DNA of 49,656 bases, from the sequence record PQ505130.1; one strand, 5' to 3'. Under the pieces are notes generated by a model that was not told the DNA's origin, ran no database searches, and saw only the letters and a list, made by a program, of their open reading frames with translations. This document shows positions 8,704-41,023 of the stretch, piece after piece. A program made the position numbers and the translations under genes. Source of the stretch: Klebsiella phage vbKpUKJ_2. Every line of letters begins with the position of its first letter. Within the stretch, counting starts at the first letter, position 1.

Positions 8704-8734
8704 TGCTGTAACTCCGTTTCGTTTCGATGGGGTA

Positions 8735-9592: not shown

Positions 9593-9636
9593 AGTATGCA
9601 CCATCCCCGGACGTTCGTTTTAGCAATTCGTGCTAT
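9593..9636 (-). promoter_or_regulatory. dyad promoter cassette
   Basis: ATAGCACGAATTGCTAAAAC, 22 nt, CATACT, with hairpin GGGGATGGTGCATACTATCCCC. Confidence 0.45.
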
Positions 9637-10124
9637 CAAAGGGCGTCTAATTCCGCCTCAATGAATTCGTACCACTCGTGGCCGTTAACTGGATCGTGTT
9701 CGGTGCCATGCAGCCAGTCCGTGTGGGTGGAACAGAATTCGCCGGATTTGTTGAAATAAAAGTCGGCCCATGACCGCGCCCAATCGCCTACGCCAGCGAA
9801 CGTGCCGAACTTGCGGATGTATGCGTCTGTATAACCGCGCTCCTTCGCAATGCGCTTCAGTGCGCGAACCAGCAACTTGCGCGGAGACGCCTTTGACACT
9901 TTCCGCAGGTGGAACAGAATGTGATCGTCATCCGGCCCCACGCGGATTGTTAGATCTTCGTCGATATCTATCGGGTTGACGATGTATTCGTTCAGGTATC
10001 CGCCCTGGATTACGTGAATCTTGCCGCAAGATCCTTTAACCTCGACGGCATCGAATACGCTCCCGATAAGATGCCGCTCTCTTCCGCGTGCCGCATTTAC
10101 TACCATGAGTTTTACGGTTTTCAT
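9636..10124 (-). CDS. hypothetical protein
   Basis: 162-aa ORF with consistent coding frame. Confidence 0.4.
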   Translation of the reverse strand: MKTVKLMVVNAARGRERHLIGSVFDAVEVKGSCGKIHVIQGGYLNEYIVNPIDIDEDLTIRVGPDDDHILFHLRKVSKASPRKLLVRALKRIAKERGYTDAYIRKFGTFAGVGDWARSWADFYFNKSGEFCSTHTDWLHGTEHDPVNGHEWYEFIEAELDAL

Positions 10125-10382: not shown

Positions 10383-10426
10383 ACTTTATCAAATGACGTT
10401 ACGGCAGTTTTAACAAAAAGTGCTAT
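10383..10426 (-). promoter_or_regulatory. dyad promoter cassette
   Basis: ATAGCACTTTTTGTTAAAAC, 22 nt, TAAAGT. Inverted repeat GTAACG..CGTTAC brackets the -10. Confidence 0.45.
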
Positions 10427-10608
10427 TCTTTTTCGCCGCTGAACGCTGCCCGATACCCACGGCGGAACCCGTTAATCTCAGAAAGGCGGCATACGCCAAT
10501 GATGATGCAAATCATGCCGATCGCCTGCCAGCCTACGTGGTCATGCAGTGCCAGGCCGCCCAGGAAGAAGGCCCAATACAGCGCGAGTTTCTTTTTGCTT
10601 GCTTTCAT
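10423..10608 (-). CDS. small membrane protein
   Basis: 61 aa with hydrophobic core LALYWAFFLGGLAL. Confidence 0.3.
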   Translation of the reverse strand: MKASKKKLALYWAFFLGGLALHDHVGWQAIGMICIIIGVCRLSEINGFRRGYRAAFSGEKE

Positions 10609-11886: not shown

Positions 11887-11930
11887 ATTATGCCCGATCT
11901 GCTGACCGGGCGTTTAGCAAAAAGTGCTAT
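11887..11930 (-). promoter_or_regulatory. dyad promoter cassette
   Basis: ATAGCACTTTTTGCTAAAC, 22 nt containing hairpin GCCCGGTCAGCAGATCGGGC, then CATAAT. Confidence 0.45.
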
Positions 11931-12128
11931 TCAGAAACCGAGCGCCTCACGCTCCAGGTTGGCCAGTGACGGAAAGCTGAATTTTGTAACGTGGTACGAG
12001 CCGCCCACATAGCCGGAAATGCTGATATTGTTGAACTCAACCTCAACACTGATAATCTTCATGTTCTTGCTGAAGGCGTACATTGCAAGCGCACGGTGCG
12101 CCCGCGCCAGGAATTCGAATTGGTTCAT
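11931..12128 (-). CDS. hypothetical protein
   Basis: 65-aa ORF. Confidence 0.3.
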   Translation of the reverse strand: MNQFEFLARAHRALAMYAFSKNMKIISVEVEFNNISISGYVGGSYHVTKFSFPSLANLEREALGF

Positions 12129-12428: not shown

Positions 12429-12472
12429 ATTATGCCCGATCCTCTGACCGGGCGTTTAGCAATGCGTGCTAT
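12429..12472 (-). promoter_or_regulatory. dyad promoter cassette
   Basis: ATAGCACGCATTGCTAAAC, 22 nt with hairpin GCCCGGTCAGAGGATCGGGC, then CATAAT. Confidence 0.45.
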
Positions 12473-12789
12473 TTCAGGCCGCGAAGGTCAATCTTCGACT
12501 TTTCCCAATCAGGGAAGCGAGGCATTTCGCCCACCTGAACCATTTTGTTTCCGCCCGGCCCCTTATCCACCCATGAATCAGGCGAGTAGCTCAGTAGGCG
12601 AACATTTTCGGCGGTCGACTCATAGGCCCAAATTGAGCCGTCGGCATCAATGGCAACCGTGTTGGCCCAAACTGGCACGTCAAGCGACTGCATATCGAAC
12701 GTGCCAGGGATGTTAATCTGGAAGGCTACAACGTGGCGCTGCGTGATGGTAGCCACTACTTGCTCGCCGGATTTAACTTCGTGAATCAT
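12469..12789 (-). CDS. hypothetical protein
   Basis: ATG at 12789 with RBS AAGGAGAAC. Confidence 0.4.
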   Translation of the reverse strand: MIHEVKSGEQVVATITQRHVVAFQINIPGTFDMQSLDVPVWANTVAIDADGSIWAYESTAENVRLLSYSPDSWVDKGPGGNKMVQVGEMPRFPDWEKSKIDLRGLK

Positions 12790-13012: not shown

Positions 13013-13040
13013 GTTTATGCTCCTCTGTTTCGATGGGGTA

Positions 13041-13084
13041 ATAATACCGCATTACCCCGATCGGGTTTTAGCAAAAAGTGCTAT
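13041..13084 (-). promoter_or_regulatory. dyad promoter cassette
   Basis: ATAGCACTTTTTGCTAAAAC, 22 nt, TATTAT, TTACCCCATCGAAAC. Hairpins CCCGATCGGG and GGGGTAAT..ATTACCCC. Confidence 0.5.
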
Positions 13085-13290
13085 CTTTCCACCTCGCGCA
13101 TCTCGCCAACCGAAAGATAATAAGCGATATCCAGGCGGCTCATTGTGGGGTGGGGCCAGCCGCACTCATGCCAGATAACATCGCCCTCGCCTTTAGTCCA
13201 CATGGTTTCGCCGTCCCAGCGCCAAAGTCGGTTATTGAGGCGCGATCCGTAGACCGCACCAGGTTTTACATCGCTCGCCTTAAAATTCAT
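13081..13290 (-). CDS. hypothetical protein
   Basis: ATG at 13290. An alternative GTG start at 13338. Confidence 0.3.
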   Translation of the reverse strand: MNFKASDVKPGAVYGSRLNNRLWRWDGETMWTKGEGDVIWHECGWPHPTMSRLDIAYYLSVGEMREVER

Positions 13291-13432: not shown

Positions 13433-13464
13433 TTCGCTTTCCTCGGTTCGTTGTCGATGAAGAG

Positions 13465-13508
13465 ATAATACCCGATCTCCCTGACCGGGTTTTAACAAAA
13501 AGTGCTAC
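13465..13508 (-). promoter_or_regulatory. dyad promoter cassette
   Basis: GTAGCACTTTTTGTTAAAAC, 22 nt with hairpin CCCGGTCAGGGAGATCGGG, then TATTAT. Confidence 0.45.
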
Positions 13509-13584
13509 TTGTTGCTCAGGTGGATGATAAACGCCGCCAGGAGCAATCCGCAATTGACACCGATGGAAAACAGGATAAAGGCGT

Positions 13585-13890
13585 TCATTGTGGATAATCC
13601 AGGCTAATGATGTTGTCGGCTTCATCGGCCATCATCTCCAGGACGTTCGACGCGCCGATGAACTCCGGCTTCGTCACCGCCTGGCCCGTCTCGGTGATAT
13701 GTTGAATATACGATTCAGAATTTGGAAGAAACGCCATCAAAAGCAAGTCACCTGTAACGCATTCCAGGGCGGTTGGATTTTCGTCGTCCGATGCACTGGC
13801 GACGGCGTCGATAACTTCCTGTTCGTCGATTAGCGTGCTGCCCAGGCGCATCGGTGCGGCGGGGTCGTTTTGGTCTGGATATAGTTTCAT
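13585..13890 (-). CDS. hypothetical highly acidic protein
   Basis: 101 aa with many D/E and few basic residues. Second gene of the leftward early operon. Confidence 0.4.
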   Translation of the reverse strand: MKLYPDQNDPAAPMRLGSTLIDEQEVIDAVASASDDENPTALECVTGDLLLMAFLPNSESYIQHITETGQAVTKPEFIGASNVLEMMADEADNIISLDYPQ

Positions 13891-14426
13891 GATTGTGCTC
13901 CTGTGATTCTGGCTTTCAGCGCCATTGTGTAACCGTTGTAAAGCAGGCCTTTTGGCATCACTTCGTCAATAATGGCAAGGATTTTTTCCCGTTCAGAGAT
14001 AGCGCCCTGCCGCCTGTATGCTTCCGCCTCCAGGTGTGAGCCAGTCCTTTCGTCGAACTCAGTAAAGACGGAGATTAACCCCGCCCCCAGGCTCACGCGC
14101 AACACCTCGCCCGGCTCCAGTAGTCTCAGTAACGGCCTGCGGAAATGGTTGTCGACCGGATTAACGCCGAACTTCTCCACGAACTCCTCCGCCGTCATCT
14201 GGATACGCCGCCCGCCATCCAGGAACATGCGCCGGATCTCGGAAGAGCGGTTGCCAGTGAATGTGCCTTCCGTCTTCGCTGCTTCCTGGCTCCGTCCGGC
14301 TGGCCTGGCGGCGTCGCCAAACGTGATGGATTGCAGCCATTCATGGTAAGCGGCTTGCTTTTCTGCGTCGTACCGCATCCACTCGGACACGTCGACTTCT
14401 TCGAACTCATAGCCTTTATATTGCAT
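13887..14426 (-). CDS. hypothetical early protein
   Basis: First gene of the leftward early operon. ATG at 14426, or GTG at 14441. Confidence 0.4.
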   Translation of the reverse strand: MQYKGYEFEEVDVSEWMRYDAEKQAAYHEWLQSITFGDAARPAGRSQEAAKTEGTFTGNRSSEIRRMFLDGGRRIQMTAEEFVEKFGVNPVDNHFRRPLLRLLEPGEVLRVSLGAGLISVFTEFDERTGSHLEAEAYRRQGAISEREKILAIIDEVMPKGLLYNGYTMALKARITGAQS

Positions 14427-14473
14427 TTGTGTTTCCCCCACATTTACGGCGTTTGGTAATGTTTCGGAAGGTG

Positions 14474-14502
14474 ATAATACAGGCCGCAGGCCGCGCCGTC
14501 AA
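14474..14502 (-). promoter_or_regulatory. sigma70-like early promoter TTGACG-17-TATTAT (leftward)
   Basis: Minus strand TTGACG (14497-14502), 17-nt GC-rich spacer with palindrome GGCCTGCGGCC, then TATTAT (14474-14479). About 40 nt upstream of the ATG at 14426. Confidence 0.5.
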
Positions 14503-14514
14503 AGGGTTTCGGCG

Positions 14515-14752
14515 TGTTTGGTAAGATTTGCTGTCATCCCCTATATATCCCTATATACATTTTTCGCGGCGGAACATCTAAAAATTATGGCTTGCGCAAG
14601 GAGAATCCATAACCCACCCGGAGAAATCTTACCAAACATATATAAAGATAAAGAGTAATAATAATAATATTGTTATTTATCATATACTTACTATCTATAT
14701 ATGGGCTTATATTGGTCATTTTTTGCGCAATTTTTAGGTAAGATTATTCCCC
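14515..14752. repeat. AT-rich region with GGTAAGAT iterons and left copy of 85-bp inverted repeat
   Basis: TTTGGTAAGATTT at 14517-14529. Its inverse is at 14626-14638. TTAGGTAAGATT at 14736-14747. Segment 14617-14703 is the reverse complement of 29767-29853 at about 90% identity. Confidence 0.6.
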
Positions 14753-14962
14753 CCCCACACTCCCACACGCCGCAAGTGTTGGTGAAACACAGCTCCAGTT
14801 CTGCCAGCTTCGATCGGCAAATTGCGTGCATGGTGCATACATTTATGCAATTCGTTGCAAATCCCTAAACACTCCCACAAGTCATTGCACAAAATGAAAC
14901 AATCAAAAGTAATCATGATTCGTCAAAACTAATCACCAGGGAATCAAGTGCAATCACCATCT

Positions 14963-14988: not shown

Positions 14989-15005
14989 AATCAGCAATCG
15001 CAGGA

Positions 15006-15049
15006 ATAGCATTTTTTGTTAAAAGCCATCCGATCGACTTTGCTATGAT
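15006..15049 (+). promoter_or_regulatory. dyad promoter cassette (rightward)
   Basis: ATAGCATTTTTTGTTAAAAG, 22 nt, TATGAT. Drives 15089. Confidence 0.45.
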
Positions 15050-15088: not shown

Positions 15089-15370
15089 ATGAAACTTCAA
15101 CGCGAATCAATCAACCTGGGCAGCGAGTATAACGGCAAGTGGAACTTCGTTATCATGGATAGCGACGCCGACAAGATCGAAGCGGTTGAGGAAGCGTTAT
15201 GCGAAATGGCCACTGACTTCTCTGTCGGCGGAGAAGAGAAAACCTGGGGCGACTACTGCGACCAATGCCCTTGCTATGATGATGGGTATGGCTCCGGCTT
15301 CTGGATTCCGGTCGAAGATGTTCCGGCCTTCAAAGAGGCGTACAAGGCAGCGAAGAAAGCAGTGAAATAA
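15089..15370 (+). CDS. hypothetical protein
   Basis: 93 aa, RBS AAGGAG. Confidence 0.45.
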   Translation: MKLQRESINLGSEYNGKWNFVIMDSDADKIEAVEEALCEMATDFSVGGEEKTWGDYCDQCPCYDDGYGSGFWIPVEDVPAFKEAYKAAKKAVK

Positions 15371-15411
15371 GCACGAATTGCTAAACGCCGGGCCGAAAGG
15401 CCTGGTATAGT
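15368..15411 (+). promoter_or_regulatory. dyad promoter cassette
   Basis: AAGCACGAATTGCTAAAC, 22 nt with GAAA-loop hairpin GGCCGAAAGGCC, then TATAGT, then TAACCCATCGAAACC. Confidence 0.5.
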
Positions 15412-15442
15412 TAACCCATCGAAACCAGTCAGGAGATTAACC

Positions 15443-15873: not shown

Positions 15874-16250
15874 TGCGAACAGTTACCATTTCGAACAGCT
15901 TTTCCTACATCATCGGATCGCCTGAAGAGCGTATCAGGGTCATCCGCGACAAGGCGACCAATGACGTTACCGATGCCTTCAGCGCTGCGGCTAAAGCTGC
16001 GATCACGCATTACTACGGTCGTGGCCCGGAAGAGTTCAGCGCAGACAGCGCGCCTTTCTTGGTTGTCAAAAAGGAAGGTGGTAATGTATGGCAAATCAAC
16101 GACAAGCAGACTGGCGAGTTTATTTTCGGATCGGTTCCGTGCCGGGTCGGTAGCAACGATGTTACCATTCAGGAACTCGGCGAAAAAGAACCTCTCGTTC
16201 AGCGCACGATCTACATCAGCCAGGATTACACGACCTGCGTTCCGGCATAG
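15873..16250 (+). CDS. hypothetical protein
   Basis: 125-aa ORF, start overlaps the previous stop. Confidence 0.4.
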   Translation: MRTVTISNSFSYIIGSPEERIRVIRDKATNDVTDAFSAAAKAAITHYYGRGPEEFSADSAPFLVVKKEGGNVWQINDKQTGEFIFGSVPCRVGSNDVTIQELGEKEPLVQRTIYISQDYTTCVPA

Positions 16251-16290
16251 CACGTTTTGCTAAAACAACATTGCGGGATAGTGGCATACT
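16247..16290 (+). promoter_or_regulatory. dyad promoter cassette
   Basis: ATAGCACGTTTTGCTAAAAC, 22 nt, CATACT inside hairpin GGGATAGTGGCATACTGTCCC. Near copy of the 9593-9636 cassette. Confidence 0.45.
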
Positions 16291-16322
16291 GTCCCCACAC
16301 CAACAAGCGAAGGAGTTACACA

Positions 16323-16556
16323 ATGAACAAACCAAAAACAAACCTTATTCTTGCTGCGCTGGAGAAGAACGGCTCTGTAGTTATGCGCCTGAATCGTGAA
16401 TGCGGTTATTCGCAGATCACGATCACGAAGGCTGTCAATGGCGGTTATGTTGTTGGTACTGTTCCTGGCGGCGTGTTAAAACGCGCTCAGATTGATAGCG
16501 TAACTGCAACAATCAACCTTTACTGCATGTTTATTGAAAAATGGTGGACGGCATGA
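16323..16556 (+). CDS. small HTH-like protein (candidate transcription regulator)
   Basis: 77 aa, RBS AAGGAG. Segment VMRLNRECGYSQITITKAVNG has a helix-turn-helix-like pattern. Confidence 0.35.
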   Translation: MNKPKTNLILAALEKNGSVVMRLNRECGYSQITITKAVNGGYVVGTVPGGVLKRAQIDSVTATINLYCMFIEKWWTA

Positions 16557-17245
16557 CAGACAAGGTTATTTACTGCATGTTCGACGGCTCCGGCATCATG
16601 GGCCTGCCGTGGGCTATCAAGGGATGCAAGGTGTACTGTTTCAATGCCGACTCCGGCGACCACGGAGAATATAGCATCCGAATGGTTCACCCCAATATCC
16701 AGTATGTTAACATTTGGATTGACAAGGATTTTGACGTGAAGCGATCTATTCTAGGCATTCCAGATCCCGACTTCATTTTCGCTTTCCCGTCATGCACGCT
16801 GTTAGCGCATAGCGGAATCAAGCACGTAAGGCAAGATAATGACGTTCTATCAGCCGCAGATGACGCGAAGATGGTCGAACGCCTGGGCAACGAGTATGGT
16901 TGCCCCTGGATGGTCGAAAACCCGGTCGGAAAATTGTCGACACTATGGCGCAAGCCTGACTTCTATTTTCACCCGCGCGACTTCGGCGGCTATGTTTCTC
17001 CGAACGAGCCTGTGTGGCATCCCAAAATGCCCCACTGTGACAATTACACGAAGAAAACGTGCATATGGCACGGAAACGGTTTTGTCGAACCGAAACGGCT
17101 CCCGCCGCCGGATGGAGTAGAAGGCGTGAATTTCTTTTGGGCCTGGAAGTTTTTGGGCGGAAGGTCAGAAAGGACTAAAATGCTGCGCTCCATTACTCCG
17201 CGAGGTTTTGCCCGCGCCGTGTTCCAGGCGAATTATCGAGAATAG
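16541..17245 (+). CDS. minimal DNA cytosine-C5 methyltransferase-like protein
   Basis: Motifs in canonical C5-MTase order: CMFDGSGIMG (motif I, FxGxG), FAFPSCTLLAHSG (motif IV, PC), WMVENPVG (motif VI, ENV). At 234 aa it is short for the family. Start at 16541, or at 16553 which is ATGA-coupled. Confidence 0.4.
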   Translation: MVDGMTDKVIYCMFDGSGIMGLPWAIKGCKVYCFNADSGDHGEYSIRMVHPNIQYVNIWIDKDFDVKRSILGIPDPDFIFAFPSCTLLAHSGIKHVRQDNDVLSAADDAKMVERLGNEYGCPWMVENPVGKLSTLWRKPDFYFHPRDFGGYVSPNEPVWHPKMPHCDNYTKKTCIWHGNGFVEPKRLPPPDGVEGVNFFWAWKFLGGRSERTKMLRSITPRGFARAVFQANYRE

Positions 17246-17285
17246 CACGAATTGCTAAAACTACCCGGCGAAAGTCGGGTAGCAT
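17242..17285 (+). promoter_or_regulatory. dyad promoter cassette
   Basis: ATAGCACGAATTGCTAAAAC, 22 nt with hairpin CTACCCGGCGAAAGTCGGGTAG, then TAGCAT, then TACCCCATCGAAACG. Confidence 0.45.
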
Positions 17286-17317
17286 TACCCCATCGAAACG
17301 CAACGGAGTAAACGGAA

Positions 17318-17521
17318 ATGAAATTTATTATCTTGATGATGTTAACTATTTTGTGTATGTCCGGGCCTGGTGGTTTTATCTTTGCCGTCATGCTGTTAGT
17401 TGTTGCAGGGATTATTGATGTTCGCCATCATCATGTAATGACCGATTTAAGACTTAACCGCCTGATTAATGATCTTAAAATTGCTTGCGAGAACATAGAA
17501 ATAAAGGTGGTGAAGAAATGA
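17318..17521 (+). CDS. small membrane protein (AT-rich island gene 1)
   Basis: 67 aa with two hydrophobic helices LMMLTILCMSGPGGFIFAVMLLVVAGII. Local GC clearly below genome average. Confidence 0.4.
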   Translation: MKFIILMMLTILCMSGPGGFIFAVMLLVVAGIIDVRHHHVMTDLRLNRLINDLKIACENIEIKVVKK

Positions 17522-21272: not shown

Positions 21273-21497
21273 TTATTTACTCCTGATCTTCACCGCCGTT
21301 TTGATATCCCCGGCTTCCAGCGCTTCACGAAGCGCCTTTGAATCTCGCCAGCGCAACCACGCGCCGAAGGAGCCGAATAGAATCATGAAAAATAAGCCAA
21401 TGGCAGCAATGATTAATTGCCCGGTTGCAGATCCCGCGAGGGCAACGCCACCGCTGCTATTGGTTGCCGCGTTGATGAACTCTCGCATGATATGCAA
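21273..21497 (-). CDS. holin
   Basis: 74 aa. TM segment [21 protein letters not shown] with charged C-terminus. RBS AGAGG. Confidence 0.5.
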
Positions 21498-21552
21498 CCT
21501 CTGTTAGTTAAATGGTAAGGTGATGATATATGCATTAGGCCAAATTAAGAAC

Positions 21553-21578
21553 AAAAAAAAGGAACCCATCAAGGTTCC
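21553..21578 (-). terminator. rho-independent terminator upstream of lysis cassette
   Basis: Minus-strand hairpin GGAACCTTGATGGGTTCC followed by T8. Confidence 0.5.
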
Positions 21579-24428: not shown

Positions 24429-24458
24429 GGCGTTTGCTCCTGATTGGTTGATGGCGTA

Positions 24459-24502
24459 ATAATACCCGCACGCGGCGGGTATTGTTTAGCAATTAGTGCT
24501 GT
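24459..24502 (-). promoter_or_regulatory. dyad promoter cassette
   Basis: ACAGCACTAATTGCTAAAC, 22 nt with hairpin CCCGCCGCGTGCGGG, then TATTAT. Confidence 0.45.
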
Positions 24503-24729
24503 TTTGCGAAATACTCCGCGCCTTCATGCGATTTAAACTCAATCAATTCTCGTTCAAGAATTTCTGGCCAGTCAGCGACCGGGGTTCCGTTGTCCATGAA
24601 CTCCATGTAGGTTCCGTCGATGGTGTCAGCAAAGGCTAACTTTTCCTCATCCGTCCCAATGAAGCCGTATTTGTCCAGCAATTCAACCACGATCCGAAGA
24701 TACTCGGTGAAAGATTCTATCTGTTCCAT
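24493..24729 (-). CDS. hypothetical acidic protein
   Basis: 78 aa, rich in Glu and Asp. Confidence 0.35.
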   Translation of the reverse strand: MEQIESFTEYLRIVVELLDKYGFIGTDEEKLAFADTIDGTYMEFMDNGTPVADWPEILERELIEFKSHEGAEYFAKQH

Positions 24730-25567: not shown

Positions 25568-25597
25568 ATGTTTCTCCGTTCTTCGTTTCGATGGGGT

Positions 25598-25642
25598 AAT
25601 AATACCCGGCTTTCGCCGGGCGGTTTTAACAAAAAGTGCTAT
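25598..25642 (-). promoter_or_regulatory. dyad promoter cassette
   Basis: ATAGCACTTTTTGTTAAAAC, 23 nt with GAAA-loop hairpin CCCGGCGAAAGCCGGG, then TATTAT, then TTACCCCATCGAAAC. Confidence 0.5.
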
Positions 25643-26046
25643 TTGATGGCGTCGCAGAAAGCGATCTTGAATTGCTCGAAGCCATAGGCCACGGCGGCGA
25701 ATCCGCCGCGACGGCGAACGGCAGCAAGGAATTCCCTTTGCTCCTTGCTCACTGGTGACGCCTGCGCCTTGCCCTGGCGCTTTAGCTCGATGGCCGCGAA
25801 CGGGTATTTGCCGCCGAACCCAATCAGGATCAGGATGTCGCTAACGCCCTTCAGCAACCCCATTTGATGATCGATAACCGCGCTCGCCTTGTGCTTACTC
25901 CCTTCGTTAACCGTATGCCAGAACAGATAATCAGGGTATTCGTGCCGCAGCCACGAAACGCTATTCATCTGATCGATTTTCTCAAGCGGGCAAGCCTTTA
26001 CAGGCCCGCCGTAGTATTCGAGATAATCACCTTTATCAGTAATCAC
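25639..26046 (-). CDS. VRR-NUC domain nuclease
   Basis: Motifs GFGGKYPFAAIELKRQG...REFLAAVRRRGGFAAVAYGFE, typical of VRR-NUC PD-(D/E)XK nucleases. Confidence 0.5.
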   Translation of the reverse strand: MITDKGDYLEYYGGPVKACPLEKIDQMNSVSWLRHEYPDYLFWHTVNEGSKHKASAVIDHQMGLLKGVSDILILIGFGGKYPFAAIELKRQGKAQASPVSKEQREFLAAVRRRGGFAAVAYGFEQFKIAFCDAIK

Positions 26047-28080
26047 TATTCGTCTCCAAAATCTTTGCGTGAAATAATATCTTCCTTCTTACCGTTAACG
26101 CGATGCGTTACGCGCTTCGGCGCTCGGAAGTAATGCGCATTCTCAAGGATTTTTCGCGCATTTTTCATCCCGCCCAGCTTGCCGCGCATTACCGCGTCGC
26201 TAACGTGCTGGAAGACTGCCTTTTGCCGCCACAACTTGCCGCAAATCTGATTCTCTGATTCCGGGAAGAACTTTTCCCTTGCGGTGAATCGCTCGCCGTC
26301 ATGGTTCAGCAACACGTAATTGAAGATGATCCCGGACTGATTGCGAGTCAAGCCGATATCGAACCCGACAACATCATACCAGTCATTTTGCGTATAGTGC
26401 TTCCCGGTGAGATTGTCATTGGGGTCTTTAAGCTGCACCCCGCAGCATCTGCACTGGCGAGCAACAATATCGTTTTCAGCGTAACACCCTTTTACTTTAA
26501 TCTTCCCTGTTCGCGGGTCTTTCTGGTCTTCGCAGCGCTGCGAGATCCAGAAGTATTCGCAACGATTACCGTTGCTGTCTTTGTGGATGCATCGGCGGGC
26601 GTACTCGCTATTTTCTCCCTTGCATACCGGGCAAATTTTCGGGCCGTTCTTGCTGCTCTTGCGTCTTTGGTATTGCGCCTGCTCAAGAATCGGATCGAAA
26701 TATAGCTGGCCCAAATCGTCCATAGTCCCGGCGAAGTCCCAAACTAAATGGTCTTCCTTCACCCACGAGTAAGGCGGCTGTTTTTGCCAGTCCTTTAGAA
26801 GTCGCATTCCACGCCCCAAAAGCTGAATAAGCAACGTAAGCGATCCGATCTTGCGCAATATCACCGAAAAATCCCAAAACGGAACGTTAACGCCAGTGGT
26901 TAGGGCCATCACCTGGAAGATGTATTTAATCTCCCCGCGATTCGCCTTATCCAAAATTTCTCCGCGTTTCTTTGAGTTGGTCTTCTCGGTGATGATCGCG
27001 TATGTGGCGTCCGGCGGTAAGTAGCTTGCCGCTTCCTTGCAATGCCGCTGGCCAGCGCAAGTAATAAGAACGCCGTTTCGGGTTTTCGCACGCTCCACGA
27101 CCTTTTGCATAATCAGCTTCGTCATTTCGCCGGATTCATGGATTTTCTTTTCCATCTTGCGCAATTCTTCCGCGCTAAAATCCTGCGTACCGTCCTGACT
27201 GGAACCGTGGAATTCTGACAGGTCATACCCTAAACCTTCCGCCTCGGTGTCACCGAAGATGGTGGGGACTACCGAACCGAACTCGACAAGATAGTTTGTG
27301 TTAATATCGGTGATCTGCTCGCGCCAGAATCCCGGCTGCGTCTTGTCTTCCTGCAAGATGGGAACCACCCCGCGAAACTCCGACCCCGTATAGCCGACGA
27401 TGCGAAGTTCTCGCCCTGTCTTCTCAAGGCACCTCCGCATTAACTCACAAATGACGATGGTGTACTGCGTGCGACCGCCGCCGAATTCTACGTCGTCGAA
27501 TTTTTCGTCGTATGGGTGGTCGGCATCGACCAGTTCCCCGTTCACGCGATACGGCTTATCCTTCGGTCTGCTCATGTACTCGAACGATTCATTGTTGGCG
27601 ATCGCTTCCGCCAGATCTTGCCAGTCAACCTGGTGGCATTCGTCAATGGCCAGAACTGAAGGCACGTAGTCGCCCAGCATTTTAAACAGGCCATTAACCA
27701 CCGTCCCTTCAGATCCGACGACAATCGGGAAGTATGCGGCCTTCGTGCCTAACCCGGCGCAATAAACGGAGTTGGGAACATCGAGGTTACTGATCTCCTC
27801 GGAGTCCTGCTTCACGATCTCGGCCTGGCGAGCAAGAACCATCATGGGTAAGTTCATTGCCTTGCACTGCGCCGCGAGCATGGCGATCATGATGGTTTTC
27901 CCGGCGGAAACAGAAGCCTTAATGTAAAAAGGATGTTCATATTTTGCGATCCGCTTCGCGGTCTCAATATACGCAACCGCCTGATACGGGTAAGGAACGA
28001 TATTTCCGACGGTGAACCGCTTTTGTATTAACGGGATCTTGTCTGCGTAGGCTTCAATTTGTTGTTCAATTGTGAGCATG
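26046..28080 (-). CDS. DNA helicase (SF2, DEAD/SNF2-like) with C-terminal zinc finger
   Basis: Walker A ASVSAGKT and DECH box AIDECHQ. CxxC..CxxC cluster CPVCKGENSEYARRC. The first ATG with an RBS is at 28080. The TTG at 28148 lies inside the promoter. Confidence 0.6.
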
Positions 28081-28092
28081 GGCAATCCTAAT

Positions 28093-28120
28093 TTGTCATT
28101 CGCATAGTTGCGTGTATAAT
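28093..28120 (+). promoter_or_regulatory. sigma70-like promoter TTGTCA-16-TATAAT for the HTH gene
   Basis: TTGTCA at 28093-28098 and TATAAT at 28115-28120. Confidence 0.45.
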
Positions 28121-28158
28121 ACATGGAACATTTTATCAGGTTTAACAAAAAATGCTAT
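28116..28158 (-). promoter_or_regulatory. dyad promoter cassette for helicase, overlapping the divergent sigma70 promoter
   Basis: Minus strand ATAGCATTTTTTGTTAAAC, 21 nt, TATTAT (28116-28121). The -10 hexamers of the two divergent promoters overlap. Confidence 0.45.
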
Positions 28159-28170
28159 GAGGGTTAAATT

Positions 28171-28572
28171 ATGGAACAAATGGCAAAGATTGATAAGAGA
28201 ACCTTGAACGGCAATAACGGAACATCGCGCGGGAAAGATAAGAAGAAACGCAAGCGACCGACTGGTTACTACGTGCTGAAGGATGAGGTTCGCGCCGGGT
28301 TGACTGCGCGGATGGAGCTGGTTATTGATGCCTTCGGTGGTATCGCGGGAACGGCAAAAGAGTTGGGGGTTAGCATCCAGGTTGTTCAGCAGTGGCGTAA
28401 GCGCGGCATGATCTCAGCCGATGGCGCTTATCTCGTACATAAGAGCTACAGACGGAACAATTGCAAAGGTTTCCGCGCCTCATTCTGCCGACCAGATTTA
28501 AGGTTTGACAGCAACGGCAAGCCAGTTACGCGACGATGCGACCGCCGGGAAATGCTCCGCGTAGTCCGATAG
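28171..28572 (+). CDS. XRE/Cro-like HTH transcriptional regulator
   Basis: Classic HTH segment TAKELGVSIQVVQQWRKRGMI. 133 aa. Has its own sigma70 promoter. Confidence 0.5.
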   Translation: MEQMAKIDKRTLNGNNGTSRGKDKKKRKRPTGYYVLKDEVRAGLTARMELVIDAFGGIAGTAKELGVSIQVVQQWRKRGMISADGAYLVHKSYRRNNCKGFRASFCRPDLRFDSNGKPVTRRCDRREMLRVVR

Positions 28573-28647: not shown

Positions 28648-29607
28648 GTGGATTTTTACGATGAAAAAGAGGTTTTGCCGTACATGGCTGGCATGTGGCG
28701 CGAGGCGTTGCAGAACATTTGCGGCATCCACTCTCGATACTTCAACGGCAAGCACCAGGACTGCCCGAACTGCGGCGGCAAAGACCGATTCCGCTGGACT
28801 GACAAGTTAGAAACGCGCGGCGACGGCGGCGCATACTGTGGCGGCTGCGGTGCTGATAAGGGGATCGGCTGGTTAATGAAGTTAAGCGGCCAGCCGTATA
28901 GCGAATGCATCAACATTCTTGGACGCTATCTCGGAAAGGTTCCGCAAGAATACGTGGTCAAGAGAAACAAGCAGGTAGCTCGTGATAACGGGTATGACTA
29001 CGGAAAGATGGCAGATCATGAAAGAGTGCTGGCAGTTTTAAACAGAACGGAGGCCGTCGATAGCACGCCTGTAACGCTGTATGAGGGTATCGAAAACGAG
29101 CACATCAAATCATATCAGGTAGGCATAAAAACCCACGAAAACGGCAGGCAGGAGCTAATTCACGCGCTACCGATGCAACTCGTGCATGAAGATGGGCTAG
29201 ATGATGAGTATTGCAATATCCTGTTCATTGATGAGGAAGGCAGGGAGAAGATGTTAGCTGGAGATCTGACCTTCGGATCGGTGATAGTGACCAATCAGAG
29301 CGACGACGGTAACGGGCCGATTTACCTTGCTCGATCCTGGATTGAGGCGATGCACTTCAATATTGCCAGTTCGTTCAAGTGCGACGTTTGGGCCTGCATC
29401 ATACCTTCAAACGTCGAGATCGTGGCGTACAGGTATAAAGGCAAGGGAGTGGAAGGAAAGCGGGAAATGCGGGTGGTTTGCCGTCGTGGAGATCGGGATA
29501 TGCTGGCGGCTGCCGACGATCGGGATCTTAAAGTTATCGTTCCGAACGGTGACAACTTCAAGCTCGGCTTTGAGCGTAAGTTATACAAGGCATCATCTCT
29601 TCTCTGA
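28648..29607 (+). CDS. DNA primase (zinc-binding N-terminus)
   Basis: CPNCGGKDRFRW...YCGGCGAD zinc ribbon. GTG start. Adjacent to the helicase and the iteron region. Confidence 0.55.
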   Translation: MDFYDEKEVLPYMAGMWREALQNICGIHSRYFNGKHQDCPNCGGKDRFRWTDKLETRGDGGAYCGGCGADKGIGWLMKLSGQPYSECINILGRYLGKVPQEYVVKRNKQVARDNGYDYGKMADHERVLAVLNRTEAVDSTPVTLYEGIENEHIKSYQVGIKTHENGRQELIHALPMQLVHEDGLDDEYCNILFIDEEGREKMLAGDLTFGSVIVTNQSDDGNGPIYLARSWIEAMHFNIASSFKCDVWACIIPSNVEIVAYRYKGKGVEGKREMRVVCRRGDRDMLAAADDRDLKVIVPNGDNFKLGFERKLYKASSLL

Positions 29608-29634
29608 TTAAATATTGACCAGAATTTAGGTAAG

Positions 29635-30012
29635 ATTGAGAAAATCAGTCTTACCTTTTTTTATGCCTGAAATTCAGTGGCTTGCAACTGGTCGAACCAC
29701 TTTAGGTAAGATTTAGTAAGATGAATCTTACGTAAATTTCGCGCAAAATTTAACCAATTATCCGCCATATATAGATAGTAAGTATATGATAAATAATAAT
29801 ATTATTATTATTACTCTATCTCTCTATACTTATCTTGGTAAGATTTCTCCGGGGTACGTATCTTTTTTCGCTGGATTTCGCGCCAGAATTTTCATGGATA
29901 TTTACCTATAGGGATCTTACCATCTTACCGATTTGCATTAACTCGATGAAATATATAGGAAAAATCACGTAAGATGCATCTTACTAAATCTTACGTAAAT
30001 TTCGCTCATTTT
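29635..30012. repeat. AT-rich non-coding region with at least 8 GTAAGAT/ATCTTAC iterons, a 31-bp direct repeat and right copy of 85-bp inverted repeat; candidate replication origin
   Basis: TTTAGGTAAGATTGAG, TAGGTAAGATTTAGTAAGATGAATCTTACG, TTGGTAAGATTT, GATCTTACCATCTTACC and GTAAGATGCATCTTACTAAATCTTACG. CTTACGTAAATTTCGC occurs at 29738 and 29990. Confidence 0.55.
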
Positions 30013-30026
30013 TTGACCAACTGCGG

Positions 30027-30069
30027 ATAGCACTTTTTGACTTGCGCCGGGAATCGTCATGCGTATACT
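30027..30069 (+). promoter_or_regulatory. dyad promoter cassette (TTGACT variant)
   Basis: ATAGCACTTTTTGACTTG, 21 nt, TATACT, TAACGCAACGAAACC. Confidence 0.45.
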
Positions 30070-30102
30070 TAACGCAACGAAACCACAAATGGAGCAATAT
30101 CA

Positions 30103-31149
30103 ATGGCTGAAGCAATTTTCAGGGCATACACCAGCAGTGAATTGACTAACGAGCAATATCACGATCCTAACTCCTGGTGCGCGGAATACGTTAGCGGCTC
30201 AAGCCTCGGCGAGATTTACGCAACATCCCCGGCGCACTGGAAATTCAAGGTGCGCGAGGAAACAGCCGCGCTGGCGTTCGGCACTTGCTCGCATACCTGT
30301 ATGCTTGAGACCGCAAAATTTAATGGCGAGTATCTGCGGGCGACTTCTCCGGGCGAGGTTAAGGATCTGATTACGTCTAAGTCGGCATTGTCTGCGAAGC
30401 TGAAAGCGTGTGGCCTGATTGGGACGTCCAACAAGGATTACCCGGAACTTCTGGAAATGGCATATCGCGCCGGGATTGACGTAAATGTTTGGTGGGCGAT
30501 TGAACTTTGCGACGAAAGCGCCGCTATGAACTCCGGGCGCAAGCTGGTTAAGGATGTTGATTTCGATGCCGTTGTTCAAATGCGAAGCGTGATGTTGGCC
30601 AACCCGCGACACGCCGCCTGTATCGAATCACCTACCGCACAGCGTGAATTGTCAATCTTCGGTGAGATCTTCGGCGTCAAGGTTAAGGTTCGACTCGATC
30701 ATGTTGACGTAGTTTCCGATCCCGAACTCATCAAAGAGTGGGGGTTTAACCCGGATGAAGTTTTCGAGGTTGTGGTGATCACAGATTACAAAACCACGCA
30801 ATCATCCAAGCCGGACGAATTCGGGCGACTCGCTTTCAATTTGGGCTACTATCTCAAGATGGCATTGCAGCGTGATCTGTTCGTGAAGACCTACAACGAA
30901 AAACGCCCGGTAGTTGTCAGACTGCTAACGCAGGAGAAAAAATCACCGTTTGCTCCGCTGGCGTTCACCCTGACCAGCCAGCAGATCGAGATTGGTCGCA
31001 AGCAGTATCAAAGCGTGATTCATCAGTATGCGGAATGCGTGAAGCATGATTCATGGCCATCATATGAGTCAAACGCGGCGGAAGTTGTTTTGCCTACTCC
31101 GCAGTTTGTGAAATACATGTTCCCGGACGTATACGGCACAAATAGCTAA
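30103..31149 (+). CDS. PD-(D/E)XK recombination exonuclease
   Basis: Motif ITDYKTT...K typical of RecB/Cas4/YqaJ-type nucleases. Immediately upstream of ERF. Confidence 0.45.
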   Translation: MAEAIFRAYTSSELTNEQYHDPNSWCAEYVSGSSLGEIYATSPAHWKFKVREETAALAFGTCSHTCMLETAKFNGEYLRATSPGEVKDLITSKSALSAKLKACGLIGTSNKDYPELLEMAYRAGIDVNVWWAIELCDESAAMNSGRKLVKDVDFDAVVQMRSVMLANPRHAACIESPTAQRELSIFGEIFGVKVKVRLDHVDVVSDPELIKEWGFNPDEVFEVVVITDYKTTQSSKPDEFGRLAFNLGYYLKMALQRDLFVKTYNEKRPVVVRLLTQEKKSPFAPLAFTLTSQQIEIGRKQYQSVIHQYAECVKHDSWPSYESNAAEVVLPTPQFVKYMFPDVYGTNS

Positions 31150-40299: not shown

Positions 40300-41023
40300 G
40301 TTTAAGCTCCTTGTGCCTGCAAATTAAAACCTTATGCTGCTCGTACCATCCAGAATAGATATCCCGGCGAGACAGCTTGCCATATGCGTGATGAAGGATG
40401 TTGTTATTTCCAACGTAAATCCCCGCGTGATTCCACTTCTCCGCCTGAAGCTGGAAGATGATCATATCGCCAACTTCAGGCTCGCCAGTGTTTTCAATGA
40501 ATCCGTCCTCTTGCCAGTAATCCTGGTAAAGATTCTCTTTGTATTCCGGCTTCCACCATTCGAACGGTACTCGCCGATCTTTTAGTGTGACGCCGTGGCG
40601 CTTGTGAAAATCCATGATGAGGCCATAGCAATCGTAAGCGCCCAACGCCCAGGGGCGACCAATCAGCGGACGGCGCTTAGGCTCAATAATTCGCATATCA
40701 CCTTCCGGGATGGATACGATAACCCACGACAAGCCAGATTCATCACAAAAGCACAAATCAGTGGCGCTTGGGGTCGTGGTTGCCCCGTCGCCAGTATGAG
40801 AATGAACGAATGCGATCGGCTCGCCATCCATTGCCGCCAGCGCATACTGCGTTTCGTCCGGCATTGATTCGTTCTCAGGATCTGGAGAAACGTTGTCTAG
40901 TCGGTGATATTTTTGCACGCGTGATTTTTGCGTTACCAGCCCAGCGCATTCGTGCGGGTAGACTTCCTTCGCGTGCTGCATGATCTGCATTTTGATTTTC
41001 GGAGTTAACATATTAGCTACCAC
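40274..41023 (-). CDS. tail assembly protein (lambda gpK-like, MPN/JAB + NlpC/P60)
   Basis: JAMM-like HSHTGDGATTTPSATD, followed by a Cys/His peptidase-like region. Confidence 0.55.
   Translation of the reverse strand: MVANMLTPKIKMQIMQHAKEVYPHECAGLVTQKSRVQKYHRLDNVSPDPENESMPDETQYALAAMDGEPIAFVHSHTGDGATTTPSATDLCFCDESGLSWVIVSIPEGDMRIIEPKRRPLIGRPWALGAYDCYGLIMDFHKRHGVTLKDRRVPFEWWKPEYKENLYQDYWQEDGFIENTGEPEVGDMIIFQLQAEKWNHAGIYVGNNNILHHAYGKLSRRDIYSGWYEQHKVLICRHKELKHGITYKDD

What the first reader, a model, noticed from the sequence alone, without database searches (positions are those of the whole stretch)
29635..30012. Iteron-rich AT-rich non-coding region next to primase/helicase: candidate origin, sharing iterons with the divergent early control region
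About 500 bp without ORFs lie between the primase and the exonuclease gene. The region contains at least 8 copies of GTAAGAT/ATCTTAC (often as TTAGGTAAGATT) in both orientations. It also has a 31-bp direct repeat (CTTACGTAAATTTCGC..TTTAACCAA at 29738 and 29990) and a very AT-rich core. The same 8-mer appears three times in the 14515-14752 region between the divergent early operons. Clustered iterons plus an AT-rich unwinding region beside the replication genes is the classic signature of a phage origin. The copies in the early-promoter region suggest the iteron-binding protein also regulates early transcription, or that there is a second origin.
Basis: partly seen in the sequence, partly recalled or inferred. 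Interest (0 to 1): 0.7.

Follow-up and report, generated by a model that had tools for sequence, protein, structure and literature searches.

The report
Twin iteron-flanked AT-rich modules, T1-like phage
This Klebsiella T1-like phage carries two copies of a conserved non-coding module, an easily melted AT-rich core ringed by many copies of a short protein-binding word. The same two-module layout recurs across the whole T1 phage family, making it the best candidate yet for that family's unmapped replication origin, although a role in switching early genes cannot be excluded.

Summary
GTAAGAT occurs 18 times in the window against 3.8 expected. Ten exact copies lie in 29630-29994 and three in 14521-14744.

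It is a 105-130 nt inverted repeat (14641-14745 vs 29724-29828, 84%). Each copy holds an outward-facing site pair, a Fis-consensus site and an AT core that is at least 80% AT. These cores are the only such stretches in the genome.

Across 37 distinct Webervirus sequences, motif columns are invariant in 64 of 70 cases, against 224 of 425 for other columns (p = 7e-11). T1, Sertoctavirus, Eclunavirus and about 40 other Drexlerviridae loci have the same two-site layout. One module lies between the divergent early operons. The other lies about 350 nt upstream of recE, not generally next to primase. Each genus has its own motif: GTAAGAT, TGTAACA, TGTAATC, AATCCTCCG or GAAACA.

There is no sigma-70 promoter, DnaA box, IHF consensus or known RNA in the module. 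Flanking genes have their own promoters, and sites abut or overlap these.

Best reading (about 0.45): iteron-plus-unwinding-element origin modules whose unidentified phage-encoded binder also regulates neighbouring promoters. Main rival (about 0.3): a purely transcriptional early control region. Nothing here is experimentally tested.

The parts
29606..29620 (.). Fis-consensus match GATTAAATATTGACC, just after the primase stop codon
   Evidence: It is one of 9 matches to GNNNAWWWWWTNNNC in the window, and 4 of those 9 lie in the two modules. The consensus is recalled from memory.
29628..29656 (+). Rho-independent terminator of the primase gene. Its stem is an inverted pair of motif copies (GGTAAGATTGA / TCAGTCTTACC) followed by T7.
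   Evidence: 12-pair stem. Annotated as a terminator in KP36. Invariant in 5 species.
29701..29739 (.). Left arm with three sites: 29706(+), 29716(+) and 29725(-). Includes the palindrome TAAGAT-GA-ATCTTA.
   Evidence: I5, 90% complementary to 29961-29999. Invariant motif columns.
29741..29755 (.). Fis-consensus match GCGCAAAATTTAACC, directly between the left site and the AT core. Homologous units occur in module A, BrunoManser and Eclunavirus.
29744..29849 (.). AT-rich core (at least 80% A+T). It contains the invariant 13-mer TAAGTATATGATA (29779-29791), an (ATT)n microsatellite and a CT-rich tract. Candidate DNA-unwinding element.
   Evidence: with 14619-14724, one of the only two such stretches in the window. 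(conservation). ((ATT)n varies from 2 to 4 units).
29838..29844 (+). Right flanking site (TTGGTAAGATTTCTCCGGG), facing outward from the core. It lies 113 bp from the left flanking site at 29725.
   Evidence: spacing 107-113 bp in 41 module copies.
29914..29928 (-). Two tandem sites, ATCTTACC ATCTTACC, 8 bp apart.
   Evidence: Invariant.
29961..29999 (.). Right arm with three sites: 29969(+), 29978(-) and 29988(-). Includes the palindrome TAAGAT-GC-ATCTTA.
   Evidence: I5, I19.
30004..30018 (.). Fis-consensus match GCTCATTTTTTGACC. It is part of the 34-nt direct repeat 29987-30020, which copies 29724-29757.
   Evidence: (D11).
30027..30069 (+). Proximal promoter of the recE-erf-ssb operon: ATAGCAC element (30027-30033), TTGACT/TTGCGC, then -10 TATACT (30064-30069). 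Not part of the module but abutted by it.
   Evidence: Read from the sequence. The ATAGCAC family is (D1-D5) and the TLS paper. T1 and BrunoManser have TTGACT-16/17-TATAAT at the same place.
14619..14745 (-). Module A, an inverted copy of the module: site 14626(-), AT core 14619-14724, Fis-consensus 14714-14728 and site 14738(+).
   Evidence: (I1).
14521..14527 (+). Third region-A site. It lies about 20 nt upstream of the -35 of the first early gene's promoter.
14474..14502 (-). Sigma-70-like promoter TTGACG-17-TATTAT of the first early gene. In Domnhall the -10 is TAAGAT, followed by an inverted CCTTAC.
13890..14426 (-). First early gene next to module A (phrog_10392, orphan, 179 aa). A winged-helix-like domain is predicted at residues about 60-125. 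It is one candidate reader of the motif; this is an inference only.
28171..28572 (+). Cro/YdaS-like helix-turn-helix protein between helicase and primase, conserved family-wide. It is the other candidate reader, and the evidence for it is weak or negative.

Best explanation
Region 29608-30102 (module B) and its inverted partner at about 14520-14745 (module A) are two copies of a cis-acting nucleoprotein module of the replication-origin type. A phage-encoded, still unidentified sequence-specific protein binds the 7-9 bp sites (TTWGGTAAGATTT). These sites flank the roughly 100-bp AT-rich core on both sides and extend toward the neighbouring promoters. Host Fis probably binds the conserved GNNYAWWWWWTRNNC site beside the core and bends the DNA. 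The loaded complex then opens the AT core so that the phage helicase and primase, with host Pol III, can start synthesis. The two modules would act either as two origins (as in SPP1 oriL/oriR) or as an origin plus a second required or controlling site (as in P4 ori/crr). The same protein, bound at sites that abut or overlap the promoters of recE and of the first early gene, also modulates their transcription, as iteron-plasmid initiators do.

Shown: the site arrays, their enrichment and selective conservation; the duplicated module; the AT-rich extremes; family-wide conservation of the layout with genus-specific motifs; and the absence of promoters in the core.

Inferred: protein binding, Fis binding, unwinding, initiation, two-site cooperation and promoter control.
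For: 1. The motif occurs 18 times against 3.8 expected, with 13 copies in the two regions.

2. Motif columns are invariant in 64 of 70 cases, against 224 of 425 for other columns, across 37 distinct Webervirus sequences (Fisher p = 7e-11). All 10 copies keep their position and orientation in four species only 82-85% identical in this region.

3. The modules hold the only stretches of at least 80% A+T in each genome examined: the window, Domnhall (three), BrunoManser and the first 50 kb of Ec_L1. T1 has one further AT-rich stretch outside its two modules, at 8042-8111.

4. The layout is family-wide. An AT core lies 324-389 nt upstream of recE in 76 of 78 Drexlerviridae loci. A second module lies between the divergent early operons in T1, BrunoManser and Ec_L1.

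5. The motif is genus-specific and shared by both modules of a genome. In Ec_L1, 7 of 8 ATCCTCCG copies in the first 50 kb lie in region A, and 8-9 more lie upstream of recE. In T1, all 6 TGTAACA copies lie in A plus B. This implies a co-evolving phage-encoded reader, as with initiator/iteron pairs.

6. The Eclunavirus layout resembles an iteron replicon. It has 5-6 direct repeats, a Fis-like site, the AT core, one inverted copy, and 2 copies directly upstream of the promoter.

7. Four of the window's 9 Fis-consensus matches lie in the modules, at homologous positions.

8. The core holds no convincing sigma-70 promoter (1 weak hit against 2.4 expected). The flanking genes have their own promoters outside it.

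9. The distance between flanking sites varies from 107 to 113 bp through (ATT)n slippage. This is tolerable for a melting region and awkward for a phase-dependent regulatory loop.

10. The phage encodes a primase and helicases but no recognised initiator. The accessible literature reports no origin for T1-like phages.
Against: - There are no replication data of any kind.
- No initiator has been identified. The helicase has no hypervariable domain, and 20 early proteins show no Pfam DNA-binding domain.
- There are no DnaA boxes and no IHF consensus.
- GC skew shows no inflection at 29.8 kb.
- The near-constant distance to recE, the co-movement of [module-recE-erf-ssb] as a block between T1 and Webervirus, and the sites placed directly at promoters fit a transcriptional control region equally well.
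- Region A is also where the packaging (pac) end lies in T1, TLS and SU57.
- The invariant 13-mer in the core shows a sequence-specific constraint beyond mere AT-richness.
Confidence: 0.45

Rival explanations
1. A purely transcriptional early control region. The sites are operators or activator sites for a phage regulator that times expression of the first early gene and the recE-erf-ssb operon. The AT core and Fis site act as an upstream enhancer, UP-like element or bent-DNA element, and there is no role in replication.
For: - Module A sits between the divergent early operons.
- Module B keeps a near-constant distance to recE in 76 of 78 loci. It moves with the recE-erf-ssb block between the T1 and Webervirus arrangements.
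- Sites lie directly upstream of the recE promoter (29969-29994; L230 at -113 and -93). They overlap the -10/+1 of the first early gene's promoter in Domnhall.
- TAAGAT itself serves as the -10 hexamer in Domnhall's TTGACG-17-TAAGAT.
- In Domnhall a second [module + phrog_10392-family gene] cassette is present.
- Fis is a classical activator of strong promoters (from memory).
Against: - Ten to thirteen sites spread over 400 bp around a promoter-less core is far more than operators usually need.
- Each flanking gene already has a proximal promoter outside the module.
- The core's orientation relative to the flanking genes is flipped in Ec_L1 region A.
- The one recognisable regulator (Cro-like HTH) does not track the motif. 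GAAACA goes with helices VTTKVVTGW and VTHQVIQQW, and GAACA goes with VNLKTVWGW and VSQQTVNQW.
- Rapid divergence of site specificity between genera is unexplained for a regulator in a virulent phage.
Confidence: 0.3
2. Packaging recognition. The site arrays are small-terminase binding sites of the pac region.
For: - The T1 record begins (base 1, terminal repeat 1-2800) inside region A.
- The TLS and SU57 papers place pac, or the genome end, in this untranslated region.
- The TLS authors matched 'AGATTT' to the P22 pac sequence AAGATTTATCTG, and GGTAAGATTT contains AAGATTT.
- T1 TerS is annotated as P22 gp3-like.
- pac sites with repeats flanking bent DNA exist in SPP1 and P1 (from memory).
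Against: - T1 base 1 lies about 60 nt beyond the G-run, among separate TTGCA/ATTGC repeats (homologous to window positions about 14800-14890). That places it next to the module, not in it.
- Module B, the richer array, lies far from any mapped end, and in Webervirus it is inverted relative to A.
- A single submolar pac fragment is reported for TLS.
- T1's motif (TGTAACA) lacks the AGATTT word.
Confidence: 0.08
3. A recombination or architectural element: loading or pairing sites for the RecE/Erf system, or a nucleoid-protein (Fis/H-NS) organising centre used for concatemer formation.
For: - Module B is always linked to recE-erf-ssb.
- Module A lies at or near the terminally redundant ends, where concatemer-forming recombination occurs in T1 (from memory).
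- The Fis-consensus sites.
Against: - There is no precedent for sequence-specific arrays used by RecE/Erf-type systems.
- This reading does not explain the genus-specific motif or the sites at promoters.
Confidence: 0.05
4. A non-functional repeat: a decaying miniature mobile element or a recent duplication, with the motif clusters as its terminal repeats.
For: - The 39-nt inverted arms flanking about 220 bp look like terminal inverted repeats (I5).
- There are two copies per genome, and the A and B cores are nearly identical in the KP36 lineage.
Against: - The motif is selectively conserved (p = 7e-11).
- The same two positions are occupied across genera whose recE proteins are only about 50% identical, each with a different motif.
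- No copies occur elsewhere, and none were found in unrelated genomes. The plasmid search gave only a mislabelled phage genome. IMG/VR double hits were all about 50-kb Webervirus contigs.
Confidence: 0.02

Closest known systems
Bacillus phage SPP1 oriL / oriR (from memory)
   Same: A virulent pac-type siphovirus with two separated origins. The origins share repeated initiator-binding boxes next to an AT-rich region. Replication genes are clustered with an exonuclease-annealase-SSB set.
   Different: In SPP1 the initiator (G38P) is known and oriL lies inside its gene. Here no initiator is identified, both modules are intergenic, and the sites are shorter (7-9 bp) and flank the AT core on both sides.
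Satellite phage P4 ori + crr (from memory)
   Same: Two distant clusters of a short octamer (TGTTCACC) in both orientations, both bound by one protein. The T1-type primase is annotated as similar to the P4-family alpha primase.
   Different: P4 alpha fuses primase, helicase and the DNA-binding domain. The T1-like primase here (319 aa) has only a Zn-ribbon plus the primase core, and the helicase shows no variable domain.
Iteron plasmid origins (R6K gamma, pSC101, F, P1) and the SaPI ori (from memory)
   Same: - Arrays of initiator sites beside or around an AT-rich unwinding element.
- Host bending-protein sites.
- Extra site copies at a neighbouring promoter for autoregulation.
- Rapid divergence of specificity between relatives.
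- The SaPI ori has iterons on both sides of an approximately 80-bp AT-rich region.
   Different: Plasmid iterons are 17-22 bp direct repeats next to the rep gene, with DnaA boxes. Here there are no DnaA boxes or IHF consensus. The sites are 7-9 bp in mixed orientation, and the downstream genes are recE and an orphan early gene.
21-nt direct repeat aaATAGCACnnnTTGnTAAAA of T1-like phages (TLS paper PMC11447400)
   Same: Another intergenic repeat family in the same genomes. One half-copy (30027-30042) abuts module B.
   Different: It is a different word, invariant across genera. About 14 copies are spread over the early operons, always in the direction of transcription about 76 nt before start codons. 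It is not clustered around AT cores (D1-D5).
T4 oriF/oriG and the T7 primary origin (promoter plus AT-rich element; from memory)
   Same: Origins of virulent phages built from an unwinding element coupled to a nearby promoter. T4 oriF lies in a recombination gene region.
   Different: Those origins need a promoter reading into the unwinding element. Here the AT core lies about 250 nt upstream of the recE promoter, and no promoter reading into it was found.

Membership tests
Iteron-type replication origin | Cluster of repeated short sites for a sequence-specific initiator | tested here: met
   There are 10 exact plus 1 near copies within about 365 bp (29630-29994) of the 495-bp gap, and 3 in the partner region, against 3.8 expected genome-wide. 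The motif is selectively conserved. Genus-specific arrays occur in T1, BrunoManser and Ec_L1-like phages.
Iteron-type replication origin | Adjacent AT-rich DNA-unwinding element | tested here: met
   Composition only. 29744-29849 and 14619-14724 are the only stretches with at least 80% A+T in the window. Actual unwinding was not tested.
Iteron-type replication origin | A cognate initiator protein that binds the sites | tested here: inconclusive
   There are two candidates only. The orphan phrog_10392 protein has a low-confidence winged-helix-like domain and is absent from that slot in Ec_L1. The Cro-like HTH does not track the motif. The helicase has no variable domain. Twenty early proteins have no DNA-binding Pfam hit.
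Iteron-type replication origin | Host factor sites (DnaA boxes, IHF, Fis) | tested here: inconclusive
   There is no TTWTNCACA and no WATCAANNNNTTR in either region. Four of the 9 Fis-consensus matches in the window fall in the modules. All consensus sequences are from memory, and binding was not tested.
Iteron-type replication origin | Replication initiates there, or the fragment supports phage-dependent replication | not testable with these tools
   This needs marker-frequency sequencing, 2D gels or plasmid amplification assays.
Sigma-70 promoter/operator control region | -35/-10 promoter elements within the repeat-bearing module | tested here: not met
   Only one weak match (TAGATA-17-AATAAT) was found in 29500-30200, against 2.4 expected. 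The real-looking promoters lie outside the module, at 14502-14474 and 30037-30069.
Sigma-70 promoter/operator control region | Regulator sites overlapping or abutting promoters | tested here: met
   - Sites 29969-29994 lie 30-60 nt upstream of the ATAGCAC/-35 of the recE promoter.
- L230 has sites at -113 and -93.
- In Domnhall, TAAGAT is the -10 itself, and three sites follow TATTAT.
- T1 has three GATTAACAC copies just upstream of TTGACA.
pac (terminase recognition) site | Coincides with the start of the packaging series | tested here: inconclusive
   T1 base 1 lies in region A but about 100 nt outside the module. Module B has no known end. Read-level data are unavailable.
ATAGCAC 21-nt direct-repeat family (TLS DR) | Consensus aaATAGCACnnnTTGnTAAAA, about 76 nt upstream of a start codon, in the sense of transcription | tested here: not met
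   The GTAAGAT sites have a different sequence, occur in both orientations, and are clustered. Only the recE promoter element at 30027-30042 belongs to that family.
Known structured RNA | Match to an Rfam covariance model | tested here: not met
   No Rfam family reaches its gathering score anywhere in the window.

The most novel reading that the evidence does not exclude
All Drexlerviridae (T1-like phages) replicate from a conserved two-site system. Two iteron-ringed, Fis-assisted unwinding modules, one at the early/pac junction and one upstream of recE, are read by a fast-evolving, genus-specific phage protein. That protein may be the orphan winged-helix-like first early gene product. It both fires replication and throttles the adjacent early promoters. 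This would locate the origin of phage T1, which the literature held here leaves unidentified, and define a new initiator family.
Probability: 0.3. Interest if true: 0.7.

Novelty: new member of a known kind. Interest (0 to 1): 0.58.

Why it matters
T1 is one of the classical T phages, and its relatives (Webervirus and others) are widely used therapeutic candidates. Yet the accessible literature states that no origin or iterons could be found in them (PMC11447400, PMC7718038).

This analysis gives precise, family-wide coordinates for a pair of cis elements. It also supplies a defined binding word for each genus. The origin question therefore becomes directly testable by marker-frequency sequencing, plasmid amplification or a pull-down with a 13-mer probe.

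If the modules instead prove to be the master early control region, they still define the missing regulator-operator system of the family. Either way they are sites to avoid, or to exploit, when engineering these phages.

Tried and rejected
- **Small RNA or small protein.** No Rfam hit. The 41-codon ORF stays open in most genomes but shows no codon-position bias. Rejected.
- **Promoters inside the module, with TAAGAT as -10.** -35 elements are poor, and the recurrent 21-nt TTGGTY-to-TAAGAT spacing does not fit sigma-70. Not supported as a general reading, although TAAGAT does act as a -10 in one Domnhall promoter.
Its recognition helix varies, but not one-to-one with the motif. Weakened.
- **Helicase N-terminus as an origin-binding domain.** The helicase is uniformly conserved. 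Rejected.
- **Orphan phrog_10392 protein as a Rep-like initiator.**
  - The AF2 model is poor.
  - The top matches are consistently winged-helix proteins but are weak.
  - Only 6 hits appeared among 1.84 billion representatives.
  - hhalign finds no link to T1 ST77.
  - The gene is absent from the Ec_L1 slot.
  - Left as a weak lead.
- **Fixed polarity of the module toward its downstream gene.** It holds for Webervirus, T1 and BrunoManser but is flipped in Ec_L1 region A. Dropped.
- **Concerted evolution of A and B.** Near-identity of the cores occurs only in the KP36 lineage. KpNIH2 and Domnhall have different A and B cores.
- **Satellites or plasmids carrying the array.**
  - IMG/VR double hits were all Webervirus.
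- **GC skew.** It follows gene orientation and is uninformative.
- **Literature searches.** Searches for transcription start sites or origins in Drexlerviridae/Webervirus found nothing. The T1 (2004) paper was not looked up, and the Rtp (2006) paper is not held under the PMC id tried from memory.
Full report
**What the window is.** The window is a Webervirus (a KP36-like, T1-like siphovirus of Klebsiella, family Drexlerviridae). Region 29300-30400 is 97.5% identical to phage KP36 and matches 344 phage records, almost all Klebsiella phages. The finding lies in the 495-bp gap between the primase gene (28648-29607, +; Zn-ribbon primase, phrog_510) and an exonuclease VIII/RecE-like gene (30103-31149, +). 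erf and ssb follow recE.

**Checking the observation.**
- GTAAGAT occurs 18 times in the window. Dinucleotide-preserving shuffles give 3.84 +/- 1.91, and none of 100 shuffles reaches 18.
- Ten exact copies lie between 29630 and 29994, with one 1-mismatch copy at 29648.
- Three copies lie at 14521, 14626 and 14738.
- The extended word is TTWGGTAAGATTT.
- The AT-rich core is real. 29744-29849 and 14619-14724 are the only places in the window with at least 80% A+T over 60 nt.
- The small ORFs in the gap are not genes. The 41-codon ORF 29786-29911 stays open in most relatives, but its variable columns fall 23/19/20 on codon positions 1/2/3.
- No Rfam family matches anywhere in the window.

The two regions do not merely share an 8-mer. 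They share a whole module in inverted orientation: 14641-14745 against 29724-29828, 105 nt at 84%, or about 130 nt when gaps are allowed. Read in the sense of module B, the module has six parts in order:
1. a site on the minus strand (AATCTTACGTAAA);
2. a 15-bp unit, GCGCAAAATTTAACC, that matches the Fis consensus;
3. an AT-rich core with an invariant 13-mer, TAAGTATATGATA;
4. an (ATT)n run;
5. a CT-rich tract;
6. a site on the plus strand (TTGGTAAGATTTCTCCGGG).

The two flanking sites face outward and are 107-113 bp apart.

Module B carries more:
- the primase terminator, whose stem is itself an inverted site pair (29628-29656);
- a three-site left arm (29701-29739);
- two tandem sites (29914-29928);
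- a three-site right arm (29961-29999, 90% complementary to the left arm);
- a second copy of the site-plus-Fis-like unit (29987-30020), which abuts the recE promoter (ATAGCAC 30027-30033, -10 TATACT 30064-30069).

**Conservation within the genus.** The 495-bp gap is conserved at 82-99% identity in about 346 records, all Webervirus-type. In four divergent species (Domnhall, KpNIH2, IMGroot, Call) all ten copies keep their position and orientation while the spacers change. Over 37 distinct sequences, 64 of 70 motif columns are invariant against 224 of 425 other columns (odds ratio 9.6, p = 7e-11). Domnhall has three modules, because it carries a second region-A-type cassette.

**Conservation across the family.** Being next to primase is not general. 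In Sertocta-, Warwick-, Tuna-, Tls- and Jhansiroadvirus, primase is followed within 100-190 bp by a tail-fibre gene. Two other things are conserved.

First, an AT-rich core (82-92% A+T per 60 nt) lies 324-389 nt upstream of the recE start codon in 76 of 78 Drexlerviridae loci fetched with a recE profile.

Second, another AT-rich module sits between the divergent early operons:
- T1: 183-322, alongside 29991-30099 upstream of recE;
- BrunoManser: 40794-40881, alongside 21469-21563;
- Ec_L1: 16240-16368.

Apart from one extra stretch in T1 (8042-8111), these are the only stretches with at least 80% A+T in the sequence examined (which covers the first 50 kb of Ec_L1).

Each genus has its own word, shared by both of its modules and rare elsewhere:
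- Webervirus: GTAAGAT.
- T1: TGTAACA. All 6 genome copies lie in the two regions.
- BrunoManser: TGTAATC and TTGTCTAA.
- Eclunavirus: AATCCTCCG. Seven of 8 ATCCTCCG copies in the first 50 kb lie in region A, and 8-9 more lie upstream of recE.
- Other genera: GAAACA or GAACA.

Read in the same sense, the Webervirus and Eclunavirus sites align as AATC-TTAC-G-TAAA and AATC-CTCC-G-CAAA. They are therefore homologous sites whose specificity has drifted. The Fis-like unit and core words such as ATATATAGATA and TATATGAT recur across genera.

**Relation to promoters.**
- The consensus scan finds only one weak sigma-70-like match in 29500-30200, fewer than in shuffles.
- The flanking genes have their own promoters outside the module. 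The first early gene has TTGACG-17-TATTAT at 14502-14474. The rightward early operon has an ATAGCA element at 15004-15024. recE has the 30027-30069 element, and T1 and BrunoManser have TTGACT-16/17-TATAAT at the same place.
- The ATAGCAC elements belong to a separate repeat family already described for TLS, whose function is unknown.
- Sites do sit at these promoters. There are three just upstream of the recE promoter, and one about 20 nt upstream of the -35 at 14502.
- In Domnhall, the -10 is TAAGAT itself at one promoter, and three sites directly follow the -10 at the other.
- T1 has three tandem GATTAACAC copies just upstream of TTGACA.

Whatever binds the sites very likely affects these promoters.

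**Who reads the sites?**
- The helicase (26046-28148) is evenly conserved, with no variable domain.
- The Cro/YdaS-like HTH protein between helicase and primase (28171-28572) is present family-wide, and its recognition helix varies.
- The gene next to module A (13890-14426, minus strand; phrog_10392) is an orphan:
  - It has no Pfam or PDB match.
  - Its only homologues are in Webervirus.
  - It gives 6 hits among 1.84 billion representatives.
  - Its AlphaFold model is poor overall (mean pLDDT 58). Residues 60-125 (pLDDT 70-81) have the helix-strand-helix-helix-strand-strand order of a winged helix.
  - Domnhall's second cassette carries a remote paralogue (hhalign probability 95%).
  - T1 ST77 shows no detectable similarity.
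  - Ec_L1 has only a 92-aa gene in that slot.
- Twenty other early proteins have no DNA-binding Pfam domain.

**Other features.**
- There is no DnaA box (TTWTNCACA) and no IHF consensus in either region.
- GATC is over-represented in the genome (305 sites) but occurs only once in each module region.
- Four of the nine Fis-consensus matches of the window are in the modules.
- Cumulative GC skew turns where gene orientation turns (about 14.5 and 28 kb), not at 29.8 kb.
- Region A is also where the packaging end lies in T1-like phages. The T1 record starts there with its terminal repeat, and the TLS and SU57 papers agree. But T1 base 1 falls among a separate set of TTGCA/ATTGC repeats beside a G-run (window homologue about 14749-14900). 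That is next to the module rather than in it.

**Interpretation.** The anatomy is that of an origin-type nucleoprotein module, not of an ordinary operator region:
- many copies of a short, orientation-variable, genus-specific site;
- sites on both sides of the most meltable DNA in the genome;
- a conserved bending-protein site;
- no promoter in the core;
- tolerance of 3-6 bp length changes between the flanking sites.

The closest precedents, all recalled from memory, are SPP1 oriL/oriR, P4 ori/crr, the SaPI ori and iteron plasmids. In those plasmids, extra site copies at a promoter give autoregulation. The accessible literature says no origin or iterons have been found in T1-like phages. I therefore rate 'origin module(s) whose binder also regulates adjacent promoters' at about 0.45.

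The main rival, a purely transcriptional early control region, rates about 0.3. It is supported by the constant distance to recE, the co-movement of the module with recE-erf-ssb, and the sites at promoters. Packaging recognition (about 0.08), a recombination or architectural element (about 0.05) and a non-functional repeat (about 0.02) are less likely.

No experiment bears on any of these. The decisive tests are listed in the next-steps field.

Noticed in passing
window 8718-8781, 9593-9637, 10383-10427, 11887-11931, 12429-12473, 13024-13087, 13448-13511, 15004-15024, 15365-15425, 16247-16297, 17241-17324, 24442-24505, 25582-25645, 28137-28158, 30027-30042: A second repeat family: ATAGCAC-N3-5-TTGnTAAAA, then a GC hairpin, then a TATTAT-like hexamer about 21-22 nt after the TTG. 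It is always in the sense of the downstream genes and is confined to the early/replication half of the genome. It matches the 21-nt 'DR' reported for phage TLS, whose function is unknown. The unusual -35 to -10 spacing, with a hairpin in between, is unexplained.
   Followed up: partly
window 14749-14900: A C8 run followed by a cluster of TTGCA/ATTGC repeats. The homologous repeats in T1 contain base 1 of the T1 record (the pac end of the terminal repeat). This is the likely packaging start region, directly beside module A.
   Followed up: partly
window 29786-29911 (+) and 14585-14719 (-): A 41-codon hydrophobic ORF (MINNNIIIITLSLY...) runs through the AT core and stays open in 33 of 37 Webervirus genomes. 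Some records annotate it as a membrane protein. Substitutions are spread evenly over codon positions (23/19/20), so it is probably not a gene.
   Followed up: yes
L002 (Domnhall) 92-1013 and 2653-3501: Domnhall carries two [phrog_10392-family gene + A-type module] cassettes. The two proteins (gp60, gp66) are only 18% identical (hhalign probability 95%), yet both modules use GTAAGAT. The second cassette has three sites directly downstream of its TTGACA-17-TATTAT promoter.
   Followed up: partly
window, whole; modules at 14450-14950 and 29600-30110: GATC is over-represented genome-wide: 305 sites, one per 163 bp. The phage encodes Dam-type methylases. There is only one site in each 500-bp module region.
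   Followed up: no
window 14641-14745 vs 29724-29828; L003 and L002 modules: In the KP36-like lineage the A and B cores are almost identical over about 60 nt. In KpNIH2 and Domnhall the A and B cores differ from each other. KpNIH2's A core is KP36-like while its B core is Domnhall-like. This suggests gene conversion or mosaic exchange between modules and lineages.
   Followed up: partly
window 29897-29912 and 29953-29960; 14540-14560: Invariant words ATATTTACCTATAGGG and ATATATAGG lie about 60-120 nt to the right of the core. Similar CTATAG(G/A)G words occur at the same relative place in BrunoManser, Eclunavirus and L253. Several sites begin ATTTAGGT. These resemble fragments of SP6/T7-type promoters, though the phage has no RNA polymerase gene. 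Probably coincidence.
   Followed up: no
PLSDB record CP124687.1 (H151): A 49,647-bp 'plasmid' of a Paraclostridium bifermentans assembly is 95.9% identical to module B, and the query matches at two places in the record. It is almost certainly a Webervirus genome misfiled as a plasmid.
   Followed up: no
L224 and L231 (IMG/VR loci): These are the two exceptions to the constant 324-389 nt distance between the AT core and recE. In L224 the core is at -161 with only 73% A+T, and no regulator gene lies within the locus. In L231 the core is at -208. They may be rearranged or deleted variants that could show which parts of the module are dispensable.
   Followed up: no
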